Shown here in pieces: positions 4,213 through 9,837 of a DNA stretch of 35,640 bases. Both the position numbers and the translations under genes were made by a program. Numbering within the stretch: the stretch's first letter is position 1; the number at the start of each line of letters is the position of its first letter. The stretch is from IMG/VR virus record IMGVR_UViG_2684623059_000001. One strand, 5' to 3'. The DNA comes from a virus. Lineage: Duplodnaviria > Heunggongvirae > Uroviricota > Caudoviricetes. Under the pieces are notes generated by a model that did not search any database, was not told the DNA's origin, and worked only from the letters and a program-made list of their open reading frames with translations.

Positions 4213-4855
4213 TGGCAGCAAATACCGAAATATTTGGGTAGCTGGCGACCTGCACGGATGCTACACGAACCTGATGAACAAACTGGATACGATTGGATTC
4301 GATAACAAAAAAGACCTGCTTATCTCGGTGGGCGATTTGGTTGATCGCGGTACAGAGAACGTTGAATGTCTGGAATTAATCACATTCCCCTGGTTCAGAG
4401 TTGTACGTGGAAACCATGAGCAAATGATGATTGATGGCTTATCAGAGCGTGGAAACGTCAATCACTGGCTGCTTAATGGCGGTGGCTGGTTCTTTAATCT
4501 CGATTACGACAAAGAAATTCTGGCTAAAGCTCTTGCCCATAAAGCAGAAGAACTTCCGTTAATCATCGAACTGGTGAGCAAAGGTAAAAAATATGTCATC
4601 TGCCACGCCGATTATCCTTGTGACGAATACGAATTTGGAAAGCCAGTTGATCATCAGCAGGTAATCTGGAACCGCGAACGAATCAGCAACTCACAAGACG
4701 GGATCGTGAAAGAAATTAAAGGCGCGGACACGTTCATCTTTGGTCATACGCCAGCAGTGAAACCACTCAAGTTTGCCAACCAGATGTATATCGATACTGG
4801 CGCAGTGTTCTGCGGAAACCTCACATTGATTCAGGTACAGGGAGAAGGCGCATGA
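4190..4855 (+). CDS. ninI: Lambda-type serine/threonine protein phosphatase (NinI)
   Basis: Metallophosphatase motifs GDLHG, GDLVDRG and GNHE in the translation; ATG at 4190 gives the 221-aa lambda length, the listed ORF start at 4115 overlaps ninH. Confidence 0.88.
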
Positions 4856-5475
4856 GACTCGAAAGCGTAGCTAAATTTCATTCGCCAAAAAGCCCGATGA
4901 TGAGCGACTCACCACGGGCTACGGCTTCTGACTCTCTTTCCGGTACTGATGTGATGGCTGCTATGGGGATGGCGCAATCACAAGCCGGATTCGGAATGGC
5001 TGCATTCTGCGGTAAGCACGAACTCAGCCAGAAAGACAAACAAAAGGCCATCAACTATCTGATGCAATTTGCACACAAGGTATCGGGGAAATACCGTGGT
5101 GTGGCAAAGCTTGAAGGAAATACTAAGGCAAAGGTGCTGCAAGTGCTCGCAACATTCGCTTATGCGGATTATTGCCGTAGTGCCGCGACGCCGGGCGCAA
5201 GATGCAGAGATTGCCACGGTACAGGCCGTGCGGTTGATATAGCCAAAACAGAGCAGTGGGGGAGAGTTGTCGAGAAAGAGTGCGGAAGATGCAAAGGCAT
5301 CGGCTATTCAAGGATGCCAGCAAGCGCCGCATATCGCGCTGTGACGATGCTAATCCCAAACCTTACCCAACCCACCTGGTCACGCACTGTTAAGCCGCTG
5401 TATGACGCTCTGGTGGTGCAATGCCACAAGGAAGAGTCAATTGCAGACAACATTTTGAATACGGTCACACGTTAG
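4852..5475 (+). CDS. Q: Late-gene antiterminator Q (lambda type)
   Basis: 207-aa translation [33 protein letters not shown]...[12 protein letters not shown]...CGRCKGIGY matches lambda Q with its zinc-binding cysteines; start overlaps ninI stop. Confidence 0.93.
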
Positions 5476-5517
5476 CAGCATGATTGCCACGGATGGCAAC
5501 GTATTAATGGCATAATA

Positions 5518-5546
5518 TTGACTTTTTGAATAACTTTGGGTAAATT
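5518..5546 (+). promoter_or_regulatory. Late promoter pR' (with overlapping qut region) for Q-dependent transcription
   Basis: ttgact (5518..5523), 17-bp spacer, taaatt (5541..5546), in the string ttgactttttgaataactttgggtaaatttgac, which closely resembles the lambda pR' region as I recall it; lies directly after Q. Confidence 0.6.
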
Positions 5547-5754
5547 TGACGCCAACAATGGGTGTTTTTTGCCTGCCATTGATGAATCTCAATAACCTGC
5601 CACCGAGTAGTTTTTATGCCCTGAATTGTATTTGTGTAGTAAACATGCTGACTGCAATGTAATAGAGTTTTTTTAGCCTGTAACCTCTTGACGGCATTGA
5701 ATTGCTTTTGTTATGAGTTGTAAGCCAATGTTATCATCTTGTATTGGGGTGGTT

Positions 5755-6471
5755 ATGAAGGATGGTGCGCTGCTCAGGAGTTCTTCACTTTTTATTGCCT
5801 ATATGGGATGCCTTGGATGGGGGAGTGCTTATTTCTATGGATGGGGTACTTCTTTTTACTACGGCTTCCCATGGTGGATTGTAGGTGCAGGTGTTGATGA
5901 TGTTGCCAGAAGTTTATTTTTTGCAGTTATCGTCATTGCTATATTTCTTATCGGTTGGGGTATTGGTGTTGTATTCTTTTTCGCAGTGAAAAGAAAACAT
6001 TCTATGCAAGAGCTAAATGTATTTCGCCTTTATTTTGCTGTGGAATTATTGTTTGTGCCGGCAATTATTGAGTTTTCTATATTGAGACAGAAGATTCAGG
6101 TACCTCTTTTGCTACTGTCAGCAGCGATTGCGCTGGCGGTTACAATTTCGATAAGATCTTATGGGCGATTTTTATCGGTATCATGCTTCTATGATAAGCC
6201 ATTTATAAAAAAACATTTTTTTGAGATTGTGATGATTGCTTTTGTGGCATATTTCTGGCTTTTTTCATTTCTGACAGGATATTACAAACCACAGTTTAAG
6301 AAAGAATATGAAATGATTAATTATAATGATGGTTGGTATTATGTTCTTGCTCGTTATGATAATTGTCTGGTTTTGTCTACTTCTTTCAATGCAGGTAGTA
6401 AAAGGTTTGTCATTTATCAATCAGCACAAGATAAGAATCTTCAGGTTGATATTGTAAGGACCAGAATTTAA
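5755..6471 (+). CDS. Hypothetical polytopic inner-membrane protein (about 238 aa), AT-rich insert downstream of Q
   Basis: Long open frame in visibly AT-rich DNA; about five hydrophobic segments (for example FFAVIVIAIFLIGWGIGVVFFFAV) then a ~60-aa hydrophilic C-terminal domain. ATG at 5755 is preceded by ggggtgg; an alternative ATG at 5713 is listed. Confidence 0.6.
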   Translation: MKDGALLRSSSLFIAYMGCLGWGSAYFYGWGTSFYYGFPWWIVGAGVDDVARSLFFAVIVIAIFLIGWGIGVVFFFAVKRKHSMQELNVFRLYFAVELLFVPAIIEFSILRQKIQVPLLLLSAAIALAVTISIRSYGRFLSVSCFYDKPFIKKHFFEIVMIAFVAYFWLFSFLTGYYKPQFKKEYEMINYNDGWYYVLARYDNCLVLSTSFNAGSKRFVIYQSAQDKNLQVDIVRTRI

Positions 6472-6930
6472 TTGGCTGCATAAATAATATTTTAAGTTGC
6501 AAGTTGGCTATTCGTAGGAATAGAACCTTAGACATGCAGAATGCGTTTTCTGAACATTGTTTTGTAAACCGTGTCTGCTTGCTGTTGTGATCCTGCTTTT
6601 AGTGATGGTGATAATGGATTTCACCAGCAGAATTATGTCGGTGCTGGCGGATGGCGTTCTGGTCTGCAGCATTATGGTATTGCTGTGGCCTATGATGAAA
6701 AAATAGACTGAATAATGCTTGATTTTTTTGTTTGCTGTTTATTAAAAACATTTCTGCATGGTGAATTCCCCTGTATGGGGGGGCGACTGGTGAATGTCGA
6801 ATACTTCGATTAATTGTCGATTGGCGGCTGACGCGGGTTCGGTTGCACCAGGCTGAACTCACCGGGAAGCTCCCGGTACCATGCGTATATCACAATTGTT
6901 ATTCCAGTTATCATTTTCCTTGTGAGTTTT

Positions 6931-6957
6931 GGCTGCGCATGGCGCGGCCTTTTTTTA
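6931..6957 (+). terminator. Candidate rho-independent terminator upstream of nanS-p
   Basis: ggctgcgc / atgg / gcgcggcc stem-loop (one G-U pair) followed by ttttttt. Confidence 0.4.
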
Positions 6958-7049
6958 CGGCCTGCTATTGGCAGATGTTCATCCTGTGATTTTCTTCTGT
7001 TCCTGCTCCGGCCTTTCCCTACTTTATTCCTGTGCATGAGAGAAATTTG

Positions 7050-8903
7050 ATGTCGATTAAACGTTATGATTTGGTCAGGGCTGCCTCGCCGTCAGATCTG
7101 GCGGAAAAACTGACACAAAAGCTGAAAGAGGGCTGGCAGCCATACGGCGGACCGGTTGCCATTACGCCGTACACACTGATGCAGGCGGTGGCTATTGAAG
7201 GAGATCCACAGGTCGGCCCTTCATCTGAGCCGGACTGGTTCTACGTGGTTGTGCTTGCCGGACAGTCCAACGGCATGGCCTACGGTGAAGGGCTTCCGTT
7301 GCCGGATTCTTACGATGCTCCGGATCCGCGCATTAAACAGCTGGCGCGCCGCAGCACGGTAACTCCGGGTGGAGAGAGTTGTACGTATAACGACATCATC
7401 CCGGCTGACCACTGTCTGCATGATGTGCAGGATATGAGTACGCTGAATCATCCGAGGGCTGACCTAAGCAAAGGTCAGTATGGCTGTGTGGGGCAGGGAC
7501 TTCATATTGCCAAAAAACTGCTCCCGTATATCCCGAATAATGCGGGGATCCTGCTGGTACCATGCTGTCGTGGTGGTTCGGCATTTACCCTGGGCGCGGA
7601 GGGGACATTCAGTGCGGACACGGGGGCCAGCCAGGATTCGGCGCGCTGGGGTGTGGGTAAACCGTTATATCAGGACCTGATTGTGCGCACCAAAGCTGCA
7701 TTACAGAAGAACCAGAAAAATGTGTTGCTGGCGGTGTGCTGGATGCAGGGAGAGTTTGACATGAGCGCCGCCACCTACGCACAGCAACCTGCGCTGTTTA
7801 CAGCCATGCTGAAGCAGTTTCGTGCTGACCTCACTGTGTTTAACGCGCAGTGTCATGGTGGCAGTGCTGTAAATGTGCCGTGGATTTGTGGTGACACGAC
7901 GTATTACTGGAAAAACACCTACGGCACGCAGTACAACACCATTTACGGGGCGTACAAAAACAGGGAGAGTGAGGGCGTTTATTTTGTGCCGTTCATGACA
8001 GACGGTAACGGCGTCAATACCGCCACTAATGCGCCGGCAGAAGATCCAGATATTCCGGCATCAGGATATTACGGTGCGGCATCGAGAACGAATGGAAACC
8101 AGGTATCATCAAACCGCCCGACACATTTTAGTTCATGGGCGCGCAGGAGCATTATTTCGGATCGCCTGGCAACCGCTATTCTGAACGCAGCCGGGCGCAC
8201 CTCAGCCTTCATCAGTGGTAAGGCACCGGAAATCAACCCCTCGCCCGGCGGCGATACGCCATCGGGGCCGTCTGATAGCGAAACATCCGTCCGCACAGTC
8301 TCCCTGCTGCCGGCAGACGGAGAGGCTGCTACGCAGGGCTGGACTATTAAAGATGGCGGAATTCAGCTGGCAGATGGTGTATTTAAGATCACCAAGCAGA
8401 GCAATAAAACCTGGTCCCTGGCGCATCCGGTGGATGACGCAATTACCCTGCTGACACAGGGCGGCAGGCTGACTTGTAAGTTCCGCCTGTCTGGAGCTCT
8501 GACTAATAATCAGTTCGGGCTGGGGATTTATCTGTATACGGACGCTCCCGTTCCTGATGGTGTGGCGATGACGGGTACCGGTAATCCGTTCCTGATGTCG
8601 TACTTCACTCAGACCACTGACGGTAGACTGAATCTGATGCATCACAGGAAAGCAGGAAACACGAAGCTGGGGGAATTTGGGGGCTACAGTAACGACTGGC
8701 AGACGCTGGAGCTGGTGTTCACCGCCGGCAGTGCCACGGTTACTCCGAAACTGAATGGAGTGGCTGGCCCGGCATTCCAGGTTATAAAAGACAGTCTGAC
8801 TCTGGGACTGAATGCGCTGACGCTGACGGATGTTACAAAAAATGCAGCGTATGGCGTTGAGATAGAAAGTCTGATGCTGGAGATAAATGCACCGGCATCA
8901 TAA
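7050..8903 (+). CDS. nanS-p: Prophage sialate O-acetylesterase (NanS-p type, N-terminal DUF1737 plus SGNH/SASA esterase domain)
   Basis: N-terminus MSIKRYDLVRA... and a GQSN motif near the start of the esterase domain; position after Q and before the lysis genes matches 933W-type phages. ATG at 7050 preferred over the GTG at 7032. Confidence 0.78.
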   Translation: MSIKRYDLVRAASPSDLAEKLTQKLKEGWQPYGGPVAITPYTLMQAVAIEGDPQVGPSSEPDWFYVVVLAGQSNGMAYGEGLPLPDSYDAPDPRIKQLARRSTVTPGGESCTYNDIIPADHCLHDVQDMSTLNHPRADLSKGQYGCVGQGLHIAKKLLPYIPNNAGILLVPCCRGGSAFTLGAEGTFSADTGASQDSARWGVGKPLYQDLIVRTKAALQKNQKNVLLAVCWMQGEFDMSAATYAQQPALFTAMLKQFRADLTVFNAQCHGGSAVNVPWICGDTTYYWKNTYGTQYNTIYGAYKNRESEGVYFVPFMTDGNGVNTATNAPAEDPDIPASGYYGAASRTNGNQVSSNRPTHFSSWARRSIISDRLATAILNAAGRTSAFISGKAPEINPSPGGDTPSGPSDSETSVRTVSLLPADGEAATQGWTIKDGGIQLADGVFKITKQSNKTWSLAHPVDDAITLLTQGGRLTCKFRLSGALTNNQFGLGIYLYTDAPVPDGVAMTGTGNPFLMSYFTQTTDGRLNLMHHRKAGNTKLGEFGGYSNDWQTLELVFTAGSATVTPKLNGVAGPAFQVIKDSLTLGLNALTLTDVTKNAAYGVEIESLMLEINAPAS

Positions 8904-9060
8904 TAAAAAAACGCCAGCGTAGTAGAAGAGAAGATTACGCTGGCGTAGGGATATACCCCGTGGAGAAATGATATGTAACACATATCGGGGATATTTCTAT
9001 ATAAACATTATAATTATTGTCAATCATAATGGTCAGGTATTATGACGTTTATGCATCAGA

Positions 9061-9089
9061 GCCATCAGTAATTAACTGGTGGCTTTTTT
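9061..9089 (+). terminator. Candidate rho-independent terminator between nanS-p and the holin gene
   Basis: gccatcag / taattaa / ctggtggc hairpin (one G-U pair) followed by tttttt. Confidence 0.4.
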
Positions 9090-9124
9090 ATTGTTGTCAG
9101 CTTCCGGATAACGGGAGACGGGGT

Positions 9125-9340
9125 ATGTACCAGATGGAAAAAATCACAACAGGTGTGTCATACACCACGTCAGCGGTGGGGACGGGATACTGGTTACTGC
9201 AGCTGCTGGACAAAGTCTCTCCATCCCAGTGGGTGGCGATAGGTGTGCTAGGGAGCTTGGTTTTTGGCCTGCTGACGTACCTGACAAACCTTTATTTCAA
9301 GATAAAAGAAGACAAGCGTAAGGCTGCGAGAGGTGAATAA
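9125..9340 (+). CDS. S: Holin, phage 21 S-type pinholin with dual-start motif
   Basis: 71-aa translation [45 protein letters not shown]...KRKAARGE resembles the S21 pinholin; two Met codons three residues apart suggest holin/antiholin starts. The listed ORF start at 9017 is an extension. Confidence 0.9.
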
Positions 9341-9837
9341 TGCCTCCATCATTACGAAAAGCTGTTGCAGCTGCTATTGGTGGCGGGGCTATTGCTATAG
9401 CATCTGTGTTAATTACTGGCCCAAGTGGTAACGATGGTCTGGAAGGTGTCAGCTACATACCATACAAAGATATTGTTGGTGTATGGACTGTATGTCACGG
9501 ACACACCGGAAAAGACATCATACTAGGTAAAACGTATACCGAAGTAGAATGCAAAGCCCTCCTGAATAAAGACCTTGCCACGGTCGCCAGACAAATTAAC
9601 CCGTACATCGAAGTCGATATACCGGAAACAACGCGCGGCGCTCTTTATTCGTTCGTTTACAACGTGGGCGCAGGCAATTTCAGAACATCGACTTTTCTTC
9701 GCAAAATAAACCAGGGTGATATCAAAGGCGCATGTGATCAGCTACGGCGTTGGACATACGCTGGCGGTAAGCAATGGAAAGGGCTGATGACTCGCCGCGA
9801 GATTGAGCGTGAAGTCTGTTTGTGGGGACAACAATGA
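9340..9837 (+). CDS. R: SAR endolysin (signal-anchor-release lysozyme, phage 21 R type)
   Basis: N-terminal hydrophobic Gly/Ala-rich SAR segment [20 protein letters not shown] followed by a T4-lysozyme-like domain; start overlaps the holin stop. Confidence 0.9.

What the first reader, a model, noticed from the sequence alone, without database searches (positions are those of the whole stretch)
6605..6706. Unlisted 33-codon hydrophobic mini-ORF between the membrane-protein gene and nanS-p
On the plus strand, atg at 6605 opens a 33-codon frame encoding MVIMDFTSRIMSVLADGVLVCSIMVLLWPMMKK: one predicted transmembrane helix ending in a Lys-Lys tail, a shape reminiscent of type I toxin peptides (Ldr/TisB/Hok-like) and of small phage membrane modulators. 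It is too short for the ORF track, which instead lists an antisense 87-aa frame over the same DNA, and a terminator-like hairpin follows at 6931..6957. I could not see a convincing Shine-Dalgarno sequence, so this is speculative.
Basis: inference. Interest (0 to 1): 0.4.

Follow-up and report, generated by a model that had tools for sequence, protein, structure and literature searches.

The report
Annotated TciB-like small phage membrane protein
The 33-codon frame is real, but it is the back two-thirds of an already annotated 49-codon prophage gene for a small membrane protein of unknown function (family DUF3927, "TciB-like"), and nothing supports calling it a toxin of a toxin-antitoxin pair.

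Summary
ATG 6605 does open a 33-codon frame ending at TAG 6704-6706. The same frame is open from TTG 6557, giving 49 codons. That 49-aa protein is an exact RefSeq entry (WP_071852679.1, "DUF3927 family protein", Escherichia albertii) and is a called gene in the source genome AP014857.1.

It scores 52 bits against Pfam PF13064 (cut-off 25) and matches PHROG 1470 ("TciB-like"). Phage 434 and PGAP (682 of 5426 complete E. coli genomes) annotate the homolog from the same TTG.

The family normally sits directly behind, and is translationally coupled to, a TerB-domain gene, as in P1 tciA-tciB. Here that partner is missing. An STM1630/TfpB-family membrane-protein gene and an 85-nt spacer lie upstream instead. 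The start is TTG with no Shine-Dalgarno sequence, while an internal ATG at 6614 has a good one.

The core (codons 21-45) is under purifying selection (pN/pS 0.23-0.35), and the frame is intact in 88 of 88 related loci.

Four checks gave no support for a type I toxin:
- no match to Hok, Ldr or TisB families;
- no antisense promoter;
- an mRNA that is not unusually structured;
- the terminator at 6931-6957 belongs to a known same-strand sRNA (STnc100/PasD).

The result is ordinary: a known family whose function is untested.

The parts
6557..6706 (+). Gene for a 49-aa DUF3927/TciB-like small membrane protein: TTG start, TAG stop at 6704-6706.
   Evidence: ORF list. Pfam PF13064 51.6 bits against cut-off 25. 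PHROG 1470 E 5e-18. Exact protein is RefSeq WP_071852679.1. Called gene in AP014857.1. Homologs annotated from the same TTG in phage 434 and by PGAP.
6617..6691 (+). Conserved core, codons 21-45 (DFTSRIMSVLADGVLVCSIMVLLWP). D21, F22 and T23 are invariant; D32, G33 and P45 are conserved.
   Evidence: Alignment A2. pN/pS 0.23-0.35, with differences concentrated at third codon positions. The same motif appears in distant family members and in P1 TciB.
6557..6616 (+). N-terminal 20 codons: basic K4 followed by hydrophobic segment 1. DNA homology to the TerB-coupled relatives starts at about codon 4 (6566).
   Evidence: DNA comparison. Residues 7-20 stay fully hydrophobic despite 21-23 of 57 nt differences, P about 0.0002-0.001 in simulation. 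There is no third-position excess here.
6607..6616 (+). Internal Shine-Dalgarno-like GGTGAT (6607-6612) followed by ATG 6614 (Met20). This is a possible alternative start that would give a 30-aa peptide.
   Evidence: Anti-SD duplex -9.2 kcal/mol, with the same geometry as the endolysin gene's SD at 9340. TTG 6557 gives only -1.1. Not conserved in distant relatives (L010, L017).
6472..6556 (+). 85-nt spacer between the upstream membrane-protein gene and the TTG. It has no homolog in TerB-context loci and varies at only 3 of 85 columns among relatives.
5728..6471 (+). Upstream gene for an STM1630/TfpB-family polytopic membrane protein. The ORF opens at 5713, the source annotation starts at 5728, and the best SD precedes ATG 5755. 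In this lineage it takes the place of the TerB-domain gene.
   Evidence: PHROG 1521 E 2e-154. PGAP name 'STM1630 family'. Precomputed Pfam PF27470 TfpB. SD energies. Linked to the TTG-type ORF in 9 of 9 and 88 of 88 loci.
6727..6960 (+).
   Evidence: Rfam RF02076 95.8 bits against gathering score 47. Terminator scan. The same sRNA follows the DUF3927 ORF in L004, L006 and L012. Literature: PMC5331693 and bioRxiv 10.64898/2026.05.13.724894.
4852..5475 (+). Late-gene antiterminator Q. It places the ORF in the late-region 'moron' slot between Q and the lysis genes.
   Evidence: Pfam PF03589 188.5 bits. Gene order.
7050..8903 (+). NanS-p-type sialate O-acetylesterase gene (DUF1737 + SASA + DUF6645), downstream of the sRNA.
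   Evidence: Pfam. Start at 7050 in the source annotation.

Best explanation
Window 6605-6706 is the 3' two-thirds of a 49-codon gene (6557-6706). It encodes a small inner-membrane protein of the DUF3927 family (Pfam PF13064, PHROG 1470, 'TciB-like').

Shown:
- family membership;
- exact identity to an annotated RefSeq protein;
- a frame that is conserved among relatives;
- purifying selection on the core;
- a position in the lambdoid late region: Q, then the STM1630/TfpB-family gene, then this ORF, then the STnc100/PasD sRNA, nanS-p, holin and endolysin.

Also shown: in most relatives the gene is the second cistron behind a TerB-domain gene (P1 tciA-tciB type), with start and stop overlapping as GTGA or TAATG. 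In this lineage the TerB cassette is absent. The homology break lies at about codon 1-4, and the start is TTG with no Shine-Dalgarno sequence.

Inferred:
- It is translated from TTG 6557 as a protein with two hydrophobic segments, a cytoplasmic basic N-terminus (K4) and a Lys-Lys C-terminus. An invariant polar face (D21, S24/R25, S28, D32) would mediate helix-helix contacts.
- It is made mainly from the Q-dependent late transcript.
- It acts as a membrane accessory or anchor subunit of the kind that serves TerB-type (TciA) proteins. Here it would work with a TerB protein from another prophage, with the neighbouring TfpB-family membrane protein, or at a reduced level.

It is not a type I toxin-antitoxin module. 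The biochemical role of the family has never been tested. [quoted passage not shown]
For: Identity.
- Pfam 51.6-52.7 bits against cut-off 25, and PHROG 1470 E 5e-18.
- Exact RefSeq protein WP_071852679.1, called as a gene in AP014857.1.
- Phage 434 'TciB' and PGAP 'DUF3927 family protein' occupy the homologous site. 682 of 5426 complete E. coli genomes have a match, and all 40 sampled rows carry the annotation.

Coding.
- Codons 21-45 give pN/pS 0.31, 0.35 and 0.23, with a third-position excess.
- 88 of 88 loci are intact.

Full-length start.
- Every family member, including P1 TciB and members found only by the profile search of 50%-identity representatives, has the N-terminal basic and hydrophobic segment. 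Profile matches start at positions 1-5.
- Retention of an all-hydrophobic residue 7-20 after about 40% nucleotide divergence has P about 0.0002-0.001.

Operon logic.
- 82 of 94 ORFs are TerB-coupled.
- The GTGA or TAATG overlap is visible in the sequence.
- P1, N4-like Pollock and Pseudomonas phage nickie have the same pair.

Orphan status.
- No TerB or TciC homolog is found in the 35.6-kb window.
- Homology to L006 begins at 6566.

Not a defence or toxin family: PADLOC gave no hit. P1 tciB is dispensable in a CRISPRi screen (PMC10695390).
Against: - The TTG has essentially no Shine-Dalgarno pairing (-1.1 kcal/mol) and no upstream cistron to couple to.
- Codons 2-20 show no coding signature between the two contexts. 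pN/pS is 1.26 and differences are spread evenly over codon positions. Within this context, all 4 variable sites are nonsynonymous.
- The hydrophobicity argument could reflect selection in a TerB-coupled ancestor rather than in the present context.
- Part of the core variation within this context may have been imported by recombination from TerB-coupled copies. The window's core differs from L021 at only 5 of 75 nt, so the 0.31 is not a clean measure of selection here.
- AlphaFold2 gives one continuous helix (residues 3-48, pLDDT 83) rather than a hairpin, so the topology is open.
- No experiment exists on any member of the family, and the proposed role with TerB rests on gene order only. The apparent fusion proteins turned out to be chimeric or frameshifted gene calls.
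Confidence: 0.62

Rival explanations
1. Short-isoform reading. In this TerB-less context the full-length start is dead. The real product is a roughly 30-aa single-helix peptide (MDFTSRIMSVLADGVLVCSIMVLLWPMMKK) started at ATG 6614 from the internal GGTGAT Shine-Dalgarno sequence, or less likely the reader's 33-aa form from ATG 6605.
For: - ATG 6614 has the strongest anti-SD pairing in the region (-9.2 kcal/mol), with the same spacing as the endolysin gene's SD. TTG 6557 gives -1.1.
- The SD plus ATG 6614 is kept in phage 434 and 2B8.
- One RefSeq entry (P0074, 33 aa) is annotated from this Met.
- Codons 2-20 lack a coding signature within and between contexts.
Against: - GTG-ATG-GTG-ATn-ATG is simply Val/Met/Ile coding for a hydrophobic helix. 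The motif is absent in L010, L017 and P1.
- The family domain always includes segment 1.
- ATG 6605 itself has its SD-like match 12 nt away.
- The hydrophobic segment left after Met20 is interrupted by D32.
Confidence: 0.2
2. Decaying remnant. The ORF was stranded when the TerB cassette and its coupled start were lost. It stays open only because too little time has passed and because gene conversion from functional TerB-coupled copies in other prophages keeps refreshing it. It is not expressed to any useful level.
For: - No SD and a TTG start.
- The homology break is right at the start codon.
- The window copy has a TAG where all relatives have CAG, shortening the tail by 3 aa.
- Identity among relatives falls from 100% in the upstream gene to 87% in codons 21-49, a mosaic junction running through the ORF.
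- E. albertii relatives carry a (GGCTGGA)n array of up to 10 copies that rewrites the conserved core.
Against: - 88 of 88 copies are intact and the TTG is always kept.
- Core pN/pS is 0.31 within this context.
- The arrangement is widespread and stable: 682 of 5426 complete E. coli genomes, phage 434 and phage 2B8.
- The C-terminal tail is variable across the family, so losing QTE is unlikely to matter.
Confidence: 0.12
3. Type I toxin. A small membrane-depolarising peptide is kept silent by an antisense or nearby sRNA.
For: Small, hydrophobic, basic C-terminus. A conserved Hfq-type sRNA gene (STnc100/PasD) lies 21 nt downstream in every context examined. Short complementarities exist between the sRNA 5' region and the ORF (11 nt at 91%, 9 nt at 100%).
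Against: - No similarity to any type I toxin family in Pfam at E up to 1.
- No promoter-like site on the minus strand over the ORF.
- The sRNA is on the same strand and does not overlap.
- By my estimate, complementarities of this length are expected about once by chance in 561 nt (listed).
- mRNA fold z = -0.85.
- The canonical context is a coupled two-gene operon with TerB, also present in virulent phages.
- P1 tciB knock-down has no fitness effect.
Confidence: 0.04
4. Not protein-coding. The conservation would reflect the promoter or 5' leader of the downstream STnc100/PasD sRNA.
For: The sRNA starts 5-66 nt after the ORF in all contexts. A possible promoter, TTGATT (6719)-15 nt-TATTAA (6740), sits just after the stop codon.
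Against: - Third-position excess and pN/pS of 0.23-0.35 in the core.
- The protein motif is conserved in phages with unrelated DNA, including P1, N4-like phages and Pseudomonas phages.
- No indels in the ORF across 88 loci, while the sRNA region has many.
Confidence: 0.02

Closest known systems
DUF3927 family (Pfam PF13064; PHROG 1470 'TciB-like inhibition of cell division or resistance to colicin'), e.g. RefSeq WP_071852679.1, WP_000499454.1, WP_000499458.1
   Same: Member. Scores twice the Pfam cut-off and has the same length class (49 aa against 46-67). It shares the layout: basic N-terminus, hydrophobic segment, DFTSR, a second hydrophobic segment with conserved D and G, WP, then a basic tail. 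The exact sequence is already in RefSeq.
   Different: The tail is 3 aa shorter than in all close relatives because CAG has become TAG. No function has been demonstrated for the family.
Phage 434 TciB (CPT_434_69, UMO75333.1) and phage 2B8 gp59
   Same: Same locus and neighbours: Q, STM1630/TfpB-family membrane protein, 85-nt spacer, TTG-started DUF3927 ORF, structured sRNA region, SASA esterase, holin.
   Different: About 10% nucleotide divergence within the ORF: C3Y, P5L, I19M, S28L, A31T, V34A, S38G, M40V. These phages have the 52-aa form.
Phage P1 tciA-tciB-tciC operon
   Same: P1 TciB (54 aa, MVIKARLILALVFLVLSVLVDFTSTILSVLSDGALV...WPILK...) is a homolog: 57% identity over the core, tblastn E 8e-8 against the window.
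   Different: In P1 the gene directly follows the TerB-domain gene tciA and precedes tciC. The window has neither. The P1 functional label is by homology of TciA only, and tciB is dispensable.
TerB-DUF3927 pair in lambdoid prophages of E. coli (e.g. L006-L012)
   Same: Same late-region slot and the same downstream STnc100 sRNA. The DNA is homologous from codon 4 to the end.
   Different: Those copies start with GTG overlapping the TerB stop (GTGA) and have a GGAG upstream. The window copy has TTG, no SD and an unrelated 85-nt spacer.
Type I toxins (Hok/Gef, Ldr, TisB, Ibs, ShoB)
   Same: Size, hydrophobicity and a basic end only.
   Different: No sequence family match, no antisense RNA found, no unusually structured mRNA, and an operonic context in relatives.

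Membership tests
DUF3927 (Pfam PF13064) / PHROG 1470 | Profile HMM score at or above the curated cut-off | tested here: met
   51.6 bits (49 aa) and 52.7 bits (33 aa) against cut-off 25. PHROG 1470 E 5e-18.
DUF3927 (Pfam PF13064) / PHROG 1470 | Small protein of about 46-67 aa with a basic N-terminus and hydrophobic segment 1 before the D-F-T/A-S motif | tested here: met
   Met only if translation starts at TTG 6557: K4, then residues 5-20 with mean Kyte-Doolittle 3.21. Present in all relatives. The start itself has not been shown experimentally.
DUF3927 (Pfam PF13064) / PHROG 1470 | Conserved core DFTSR...S..L.DG......WP followed by a basic tail | tested here: met
   D21, F22, T23, L30 and L35 are invariant. 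S24, R25, G33 and P45 are at least 90% conserved in A2. The window has all of them and ends in KK.
P1-type TciA-TciB(-TciC) module | TerB-domain gene immediately upstream, with stop and start overlapping | tested here: not met
   Upstream is an STM1630/TfpB-family gene followed by an 85-nt gap. No TerB homolog anywhere in the window. 82 of 94 relatives do have it.
P1-type TciA-TciB(-TciC) module | Small TciC-like gene downstream | tested here: not met
   No TciC match in the window. The downstream DNA is the STnc100 sRNA.
P1-type TciA-TciB(-TciC) module | [quoted passage not shown] | not testable with these tools
   The label in the P1 record is 'by homology'. No experimental paper was found.
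Type I toxin-antitoxin system | Small hydrophobic peptide under 60 aa | tested here: met
   49 aa (or 30-33 aa), mean Kyte-Doolittle 1.73.
Type I toxin-antitoxin system | Antisense or overlapping sRNA antitoxin that pairs with the toxin mRNA | tested here: not met
   No minus-strand promoter-like site over 6557-6706. The only sRNA is on the same strand and does not overlap. Complementarities of 9-11 nt are, by my estimate, at chance level. A consensus scan cannot exclude a weak promoter.
Type I toxin-antitoxin system | Homology to a known toxin family (Hok, Ldr, TisB, Ibs, ShoB etc.) | tested here: not met
   A Pfam scan at E up to 1 returns only DUF3927 for both the 49-aa and the 33-aa form.
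Type I toxin-antitoxin system | Highly structured toxin mRNA that limits translation | tested here: not met
   For 6472-6720 the MFE is -65.7 against a shuffle mean of -62.0, z = -0.85.
Type I toxin-antitoxin system | Toxicity on overexpression | not testable with these tools
   Needs an expression experiment. The only indirect datum is that P1 tciB knock-down is neutral.
Known anti-phage defence systems (PADLOC) | Match to a defence-system protein model | tested here: not met
   No hit for the ORF, its TerB-coupled homolog or the upstream gene. The TerB protein gets only a weak 14.8-bit hit.

The most novel reading that the evidence does not exclude
Losing the TerB partner and the coupled start has re-wired the gene. 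In the STM1630/TfpB context it would be expressed mainly from the internal SD plus ATG 6614, as a 30-aa single-helix peptide carrying only the invariant DFTSR...D..G core. That peptide would have an autonomous membrane activity, for example modulating the neighbouring TfpB-family protein or the lysis timing of the adjacent holin cassette, or being mildly toxic. The (GGCTGGA)n array seen in E. albertii relatives would then act as a slipped-strand on/off switch for it.
Probability: 0.08. Interest if true: 0.45.

Novelty: already known. Interest (0 to 1): 0.13.

Why it matters
It matters little for discovery. The gene is already annotated in the source genome, in RefSeq, in phage 434 and in Pfam and PHROGs.

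The useful points are corrective:
- The gene is 49 codons, not 33.
- The terminator belongs to a known sRNA.
- The toxin analogy has no support.

A modest open question remains. DUF3927 is a small family (103 representatives at 50% identity among 1.84 billion proteins). It is nearly always coupled to a TerB-domain gene in temperate and virulent phages alike, and nobody has tested it. The TerB-less variant here, with its TTG start, absent SD and internal SD plus ATG, is a natural experiment on whether the small protein can act alone.

Tried and rejected
- A literature search for 'TciB' alone returned Trypanosoma and chemistry papers. With 'phage' added it returned only P1 gene tables. 'DUF3927' occurs in two papers, neither functional. 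The P1 genome paper is not held.
- NCBIfam and PADLOC gave no meaningful hits.
- I looked for a TerB-DUF3927 fusion as evidence of physical partnership. The long hits (P0140, P0192, P0176, P0211) are fragments of unrelated or frameshifted genes joined to the DUF3927 part, so they are not real fusions.
- AlphaFold2 predicts one continuous helix and does not settle the topology. No fold search was run, because a single helix is uninformative.
- Complementarity between the ORF and the downstream sRNA (11 nt at 91%, 9 nt at 100%) is, by my estimate, at the level expected by chance in 561 nt.
- A small overlapping upstream frame (6534-6590) has a TGA that overlaps GTG codon 11 as GTGA. I considered it as a coupling device. 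It would cut segment 1 in half, and the substitutions are nonsynonymous in both frames, so I dropped it as uninformative (sequence).
- The antisense 87-aa frame (6599-6862) has no family match, and relatives have indels of 3, 5, 7 and 15 nt across it.

Full report
**Observation.** The sequence shows ATG at 6605 and a frame that reads MVIMDFTSRIMSVLADGVLVCSIMVLLWPMMKK, ending with TAG at 6704-6706. The same frame is open from just after TGA 6551-6553. The ORF list gives 6557..6706, TTG start, 49 aa: MFCKPCLLAVVILLLVMVIMDFTSRIMSVLADGVLVCSIMVLLWPMMKK. An ORF of this size is not remarkable by itself, since 90 ORFs of at least 20 aa overlap 4500-9500. The hairpin plus T-run at 6931-6957 is there.

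**Identity.**
- Both the 49-aa and the 33-aa forms match Pfam PF13064 (DUF3927) at 51.6 and 52.7 bits against a cut-off of 25. No other family appears, even at E = 1.
- PHROG 1470, labelled 'TciB-like inhibition of cell division or resistance to colicin', matches at E 5e-18.
- The exact 49-aa sequence is RefSeq WP_071852679.1, 'DUF3927 family protein [Escherichia albertii]'.
- It is a called gene on AP014857.1, with neighbours identical to the window: NinG, NinH, phosphatase, Q, TfpB-family protein, DUF3927, DUF1737/SASA/DUF6645 esterase, holin, lysozyme, Rz. The window is therefore an E. albertii lambdoid prophage, and the gene is already annotated.
- The homologous DNA is annotated 'TciB' in phage 434 and 'TciB-like' in phage 2B8.
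- 682 of 5426 complete E. coli genomes have a match, and every one of the 40 sampled rows is annotated 'DUF3927 family protein'. Three inspected records start at the TTG equivalent to 6557.

**Origin of the name.** TciB comes from phage P1, where tciA (a TerB-domain protein), tciB and tciC form a tight cluster. [quoted passage not shown] A CRISPRi screen scored P1 tciA, tciB and tciC as nonessential (PMC10695390). I found no experimental paper on any DUF3927 protein.

**Family and canonical context.**
- A profile search of 1.84 billion 50%-identity representatives finds only 103 members. Nearly all are 45-65 aa, with matches starting at profile positions 1-5.
- Distant members share one plan: M-x-x-K/R-x-R/K, about 14 hydrophobic residues, D-F-T/A-S, a second hydrophobic stretch with a conserved D and G, W/F-P, and a basic tail. 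P1 TciB has the same plan.
- Of the 94 ORFs with the DFTSR motif in the loci fetched up to that point, 82 follow a TerB-domain gene and 9 follow the STM1630/TfpB-family gene.
- In the TerB-coupled copies the start is GTG overlapping the TerB stop (GTGA), or ATG as TAATG, with GGAG upstream.
- The same TerB-then-DUF3927 pair is present in P1, in the N4-like virulent phage Pollock and in Pseudomonas phage nickie.
- In lambdoid prophages the pair sits between Q (often after tRNA genes) and the holin. From my own knowledge, this is the slot that stx occupies in Shiga-toxin phages.

**What differs in the window.**
- The window has no TerB or TciC homolog.
- The upstream gene encodes a polytopic membrane protein (PHROG 1521; PGAP 'STM1630 family'; precomputed Pfam PF27470 TfpB), followed by an 85-nt spacer.
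- DNA homology to TerB-context loci begins at 6566, about codon 4. A diverged copy of the TfpB-family gene lies about 2.5 kb further upstream in those loci. The window's layout therefore looks like the same region without the intervening methylase, tRNA and TerB cassette.
- The TTG type of N-terminus is perfectly linked to this context: 9 of 9 loci, then 88 of 88.

**Is it coding, and from where?**
- Codons 21-45 give pN/pS 0.31 within this context, 0.35 within the TerB context and 0.23 between them. Differences sit mostly at third positions: 1-4, 0-2 and 4-9 at positions 1, 2 and 3.
- All 88 loci with the same upstream gene and enough downstream sequence have the ORF intact, at 49-55 aa. The window is unique in having TAG where the others have CAG.
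- The N-terminal 20 codons are less clear. Between contexts pN/pS is 1.26 and differences are even across codon positions. Within this context, the 4 variable sites are all nonsynonymous.
- Against that, residues 7-20 are still entirely hydrophobic after 21-23 of 57 nucleotide differences. This happens in only 0.02-0.1% of unconstrained simulations. The caveat is that this selection may have acted in a TerB-coupled ancestor.
- Anti-Shine-Dalgarno pairing is -1.1 kcal/mol before TTG 6557. It is -7.7 before ATG 6605, but the duplex ends 12 nt upstream. It is -9.2 before ATG 6614 (GGTGAT at 6607-6612), with geometry like the endolysin gene's site. That internal site is not conserved in L010, L017 or P1.
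- I conclude that the 49-aa product is the most likely one.

**Shape.** Residues 5-20 (mean Kyte-Doolittle 3.21) and 26-44 (2.25) flank DFTSR (-1.34). D21, S24, R25, S28 and D32 fall within a 100-degree arc of a helical wheel. AlphaFold2 with the 25-sequence alignment gives one helix from residue 3 to 48, with pLDDT 83.4 and pTM 0.43. That does not decide between a hairpin and a long helix.

**Type I toxin reading.**
- There is no match to Hok, Ldr or TisB-type families.
- There is no promoter-like site on the minus strand over the ORF.
- The mRNA fold has z = -0.85.
- The only nearby RNA gene is on the same strand and downstream.
- Complementarities to that RNA are 9-11 nt, which by my estimate is what chance gives in 561 nt.
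- Together with the operonic context in relatives, including virulent phages, the analogy is not supported. Toxicity itself was not testable here.

**Downstream element.** The same sRNA follows the DUF3927 ORF by 5-66 nt in L004, L006 and L012. STnc100 copies are transcribed in EHEC EDL933, and one was confirmed by Northern blot (PMC5331693). [quoted passage not shown]

**Signs of relaxed constraint in relatives.** Identity among loci of this context drops from 100% in the upstream gene to 95% in codons 1-20, 87% in codons 21-49 and 74% in the sRNA. A mosaic junction zone therefore runs through the ORF. In other E. albertii prophages the conserved core is replaced by a perfect (GGCTGGA)n array: 10 copies in L180, fewer in L182. 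Proteins with one, two or three LEAGGWR units are annotated. The window has no such array.

**Verdict.** This is a real gene, already annotated. It belongs to a small, uncharacterised phage family whose usual partner, TerB, is missing here. Interest is low.

Noticed in passing
window 6727-6960 (+): STnc100/PasD-family prophage sRNA gene (Rfam RF02076, 95.8 bits against gathering score 47) ending in the terminator at 6931-6957. A possible promoter, TTGATT (6719)-15 nt-TATTAA (6740), lies just after the ORF's stop. The window and phage 434 differ by paired changes in the first hairpin (CCCCTG...GGGG against CCTCC...GGAGG). The same sRNA follows the DUF3927 ORF in both gene contexts.
   Followed up: partly
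window 8903-8984 (-): Sub-threshold Esr41-like structured RNA (47.5 bits against gathering score 102) between the nanS-p stop and the holin gene, with its own terminator-like end. It may be a PasA/PasC-type prophage sRNA.
   Followed up: no
L180 1538-1607, also L181 and L182 (E. albertii prophages): A perfect heptanucleotide array (GGCTGGA) x10 lies inside the homologous DUF3927 ORF and replaces the conserved LADGVLV core. Relatives with fewer copies give annotated proteins with 1, 2 or 3 LEAGGWR units. This is either decay or a slipped-strand on/off switch. It is absent from the window.
   Followed up: partly
window 5713-6471 (+): The upstream membrane-protein gene (STM1630/TfpB family, PHROG 1521) has three in-frame ATGs at 5713, 5728 and 5755. 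Only 5755 has a strong Shine-Dalgarno sequence (GGGGTGGT, -10.7 kcal/mol). The source annotation uses 5728, and the PHROG profiles start at residue 15 or 31.
   Followed up: partly
window 7032-7052 (+): The nanS-p frame opens at GTG 7032, but the source annotation and the relatives start at ATG 7050 (MSIKRYD..., DUF1737 domain).
   Followed up: partly
window 6157-7036 compared with L001-L005, L016, L019, L020: Nucleotide identity falls stepwise from 100% (upstream gene) through 95% and 87% (the two halves of the small ORF) to about 74% (sRNA). The C-terminal tails (MMKKQTE, MMKEQNE, VIKRNSLHNA, VIKKKQPA) assort independently of the N-terminal type. Recombination junctions therefore lie inside this 150-nt gene.
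   Followed up: partly
window 5518-5575 (+): A promoter-like site, TTGACT-17 nt-TAAATT (5518-5546), is followed immediately by a terminator-like hairpin with a T-run (5548-5575), 43-100 nt after the Q stop codon. These are candidates for the late promoter and early terminator on which Q acts. The spacing is very tight and was not examined further.
   Followed up: no
window 6534-6590 (+): A short overlapping frame (MQNAFSEHCFVNRVCLLL) has a TGA that overlaps GTG codon 11 of the DUF3927 frame as GTGA, the same overlap used for TerB coupling in relatives. It is conserved in phage 434 but is probably coincidental.
   Followed up: partly
L004 3452-3513 (-), EDL933 prophage: An AgvB (anti-GcvB) sRNA match (96.5 bits against gathering score 56) lies immediately after STnc100, on the opposite strand, in the EDL933 relative. 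No AgvB match was reported at the corresponding place in the window.
   Followed up: no
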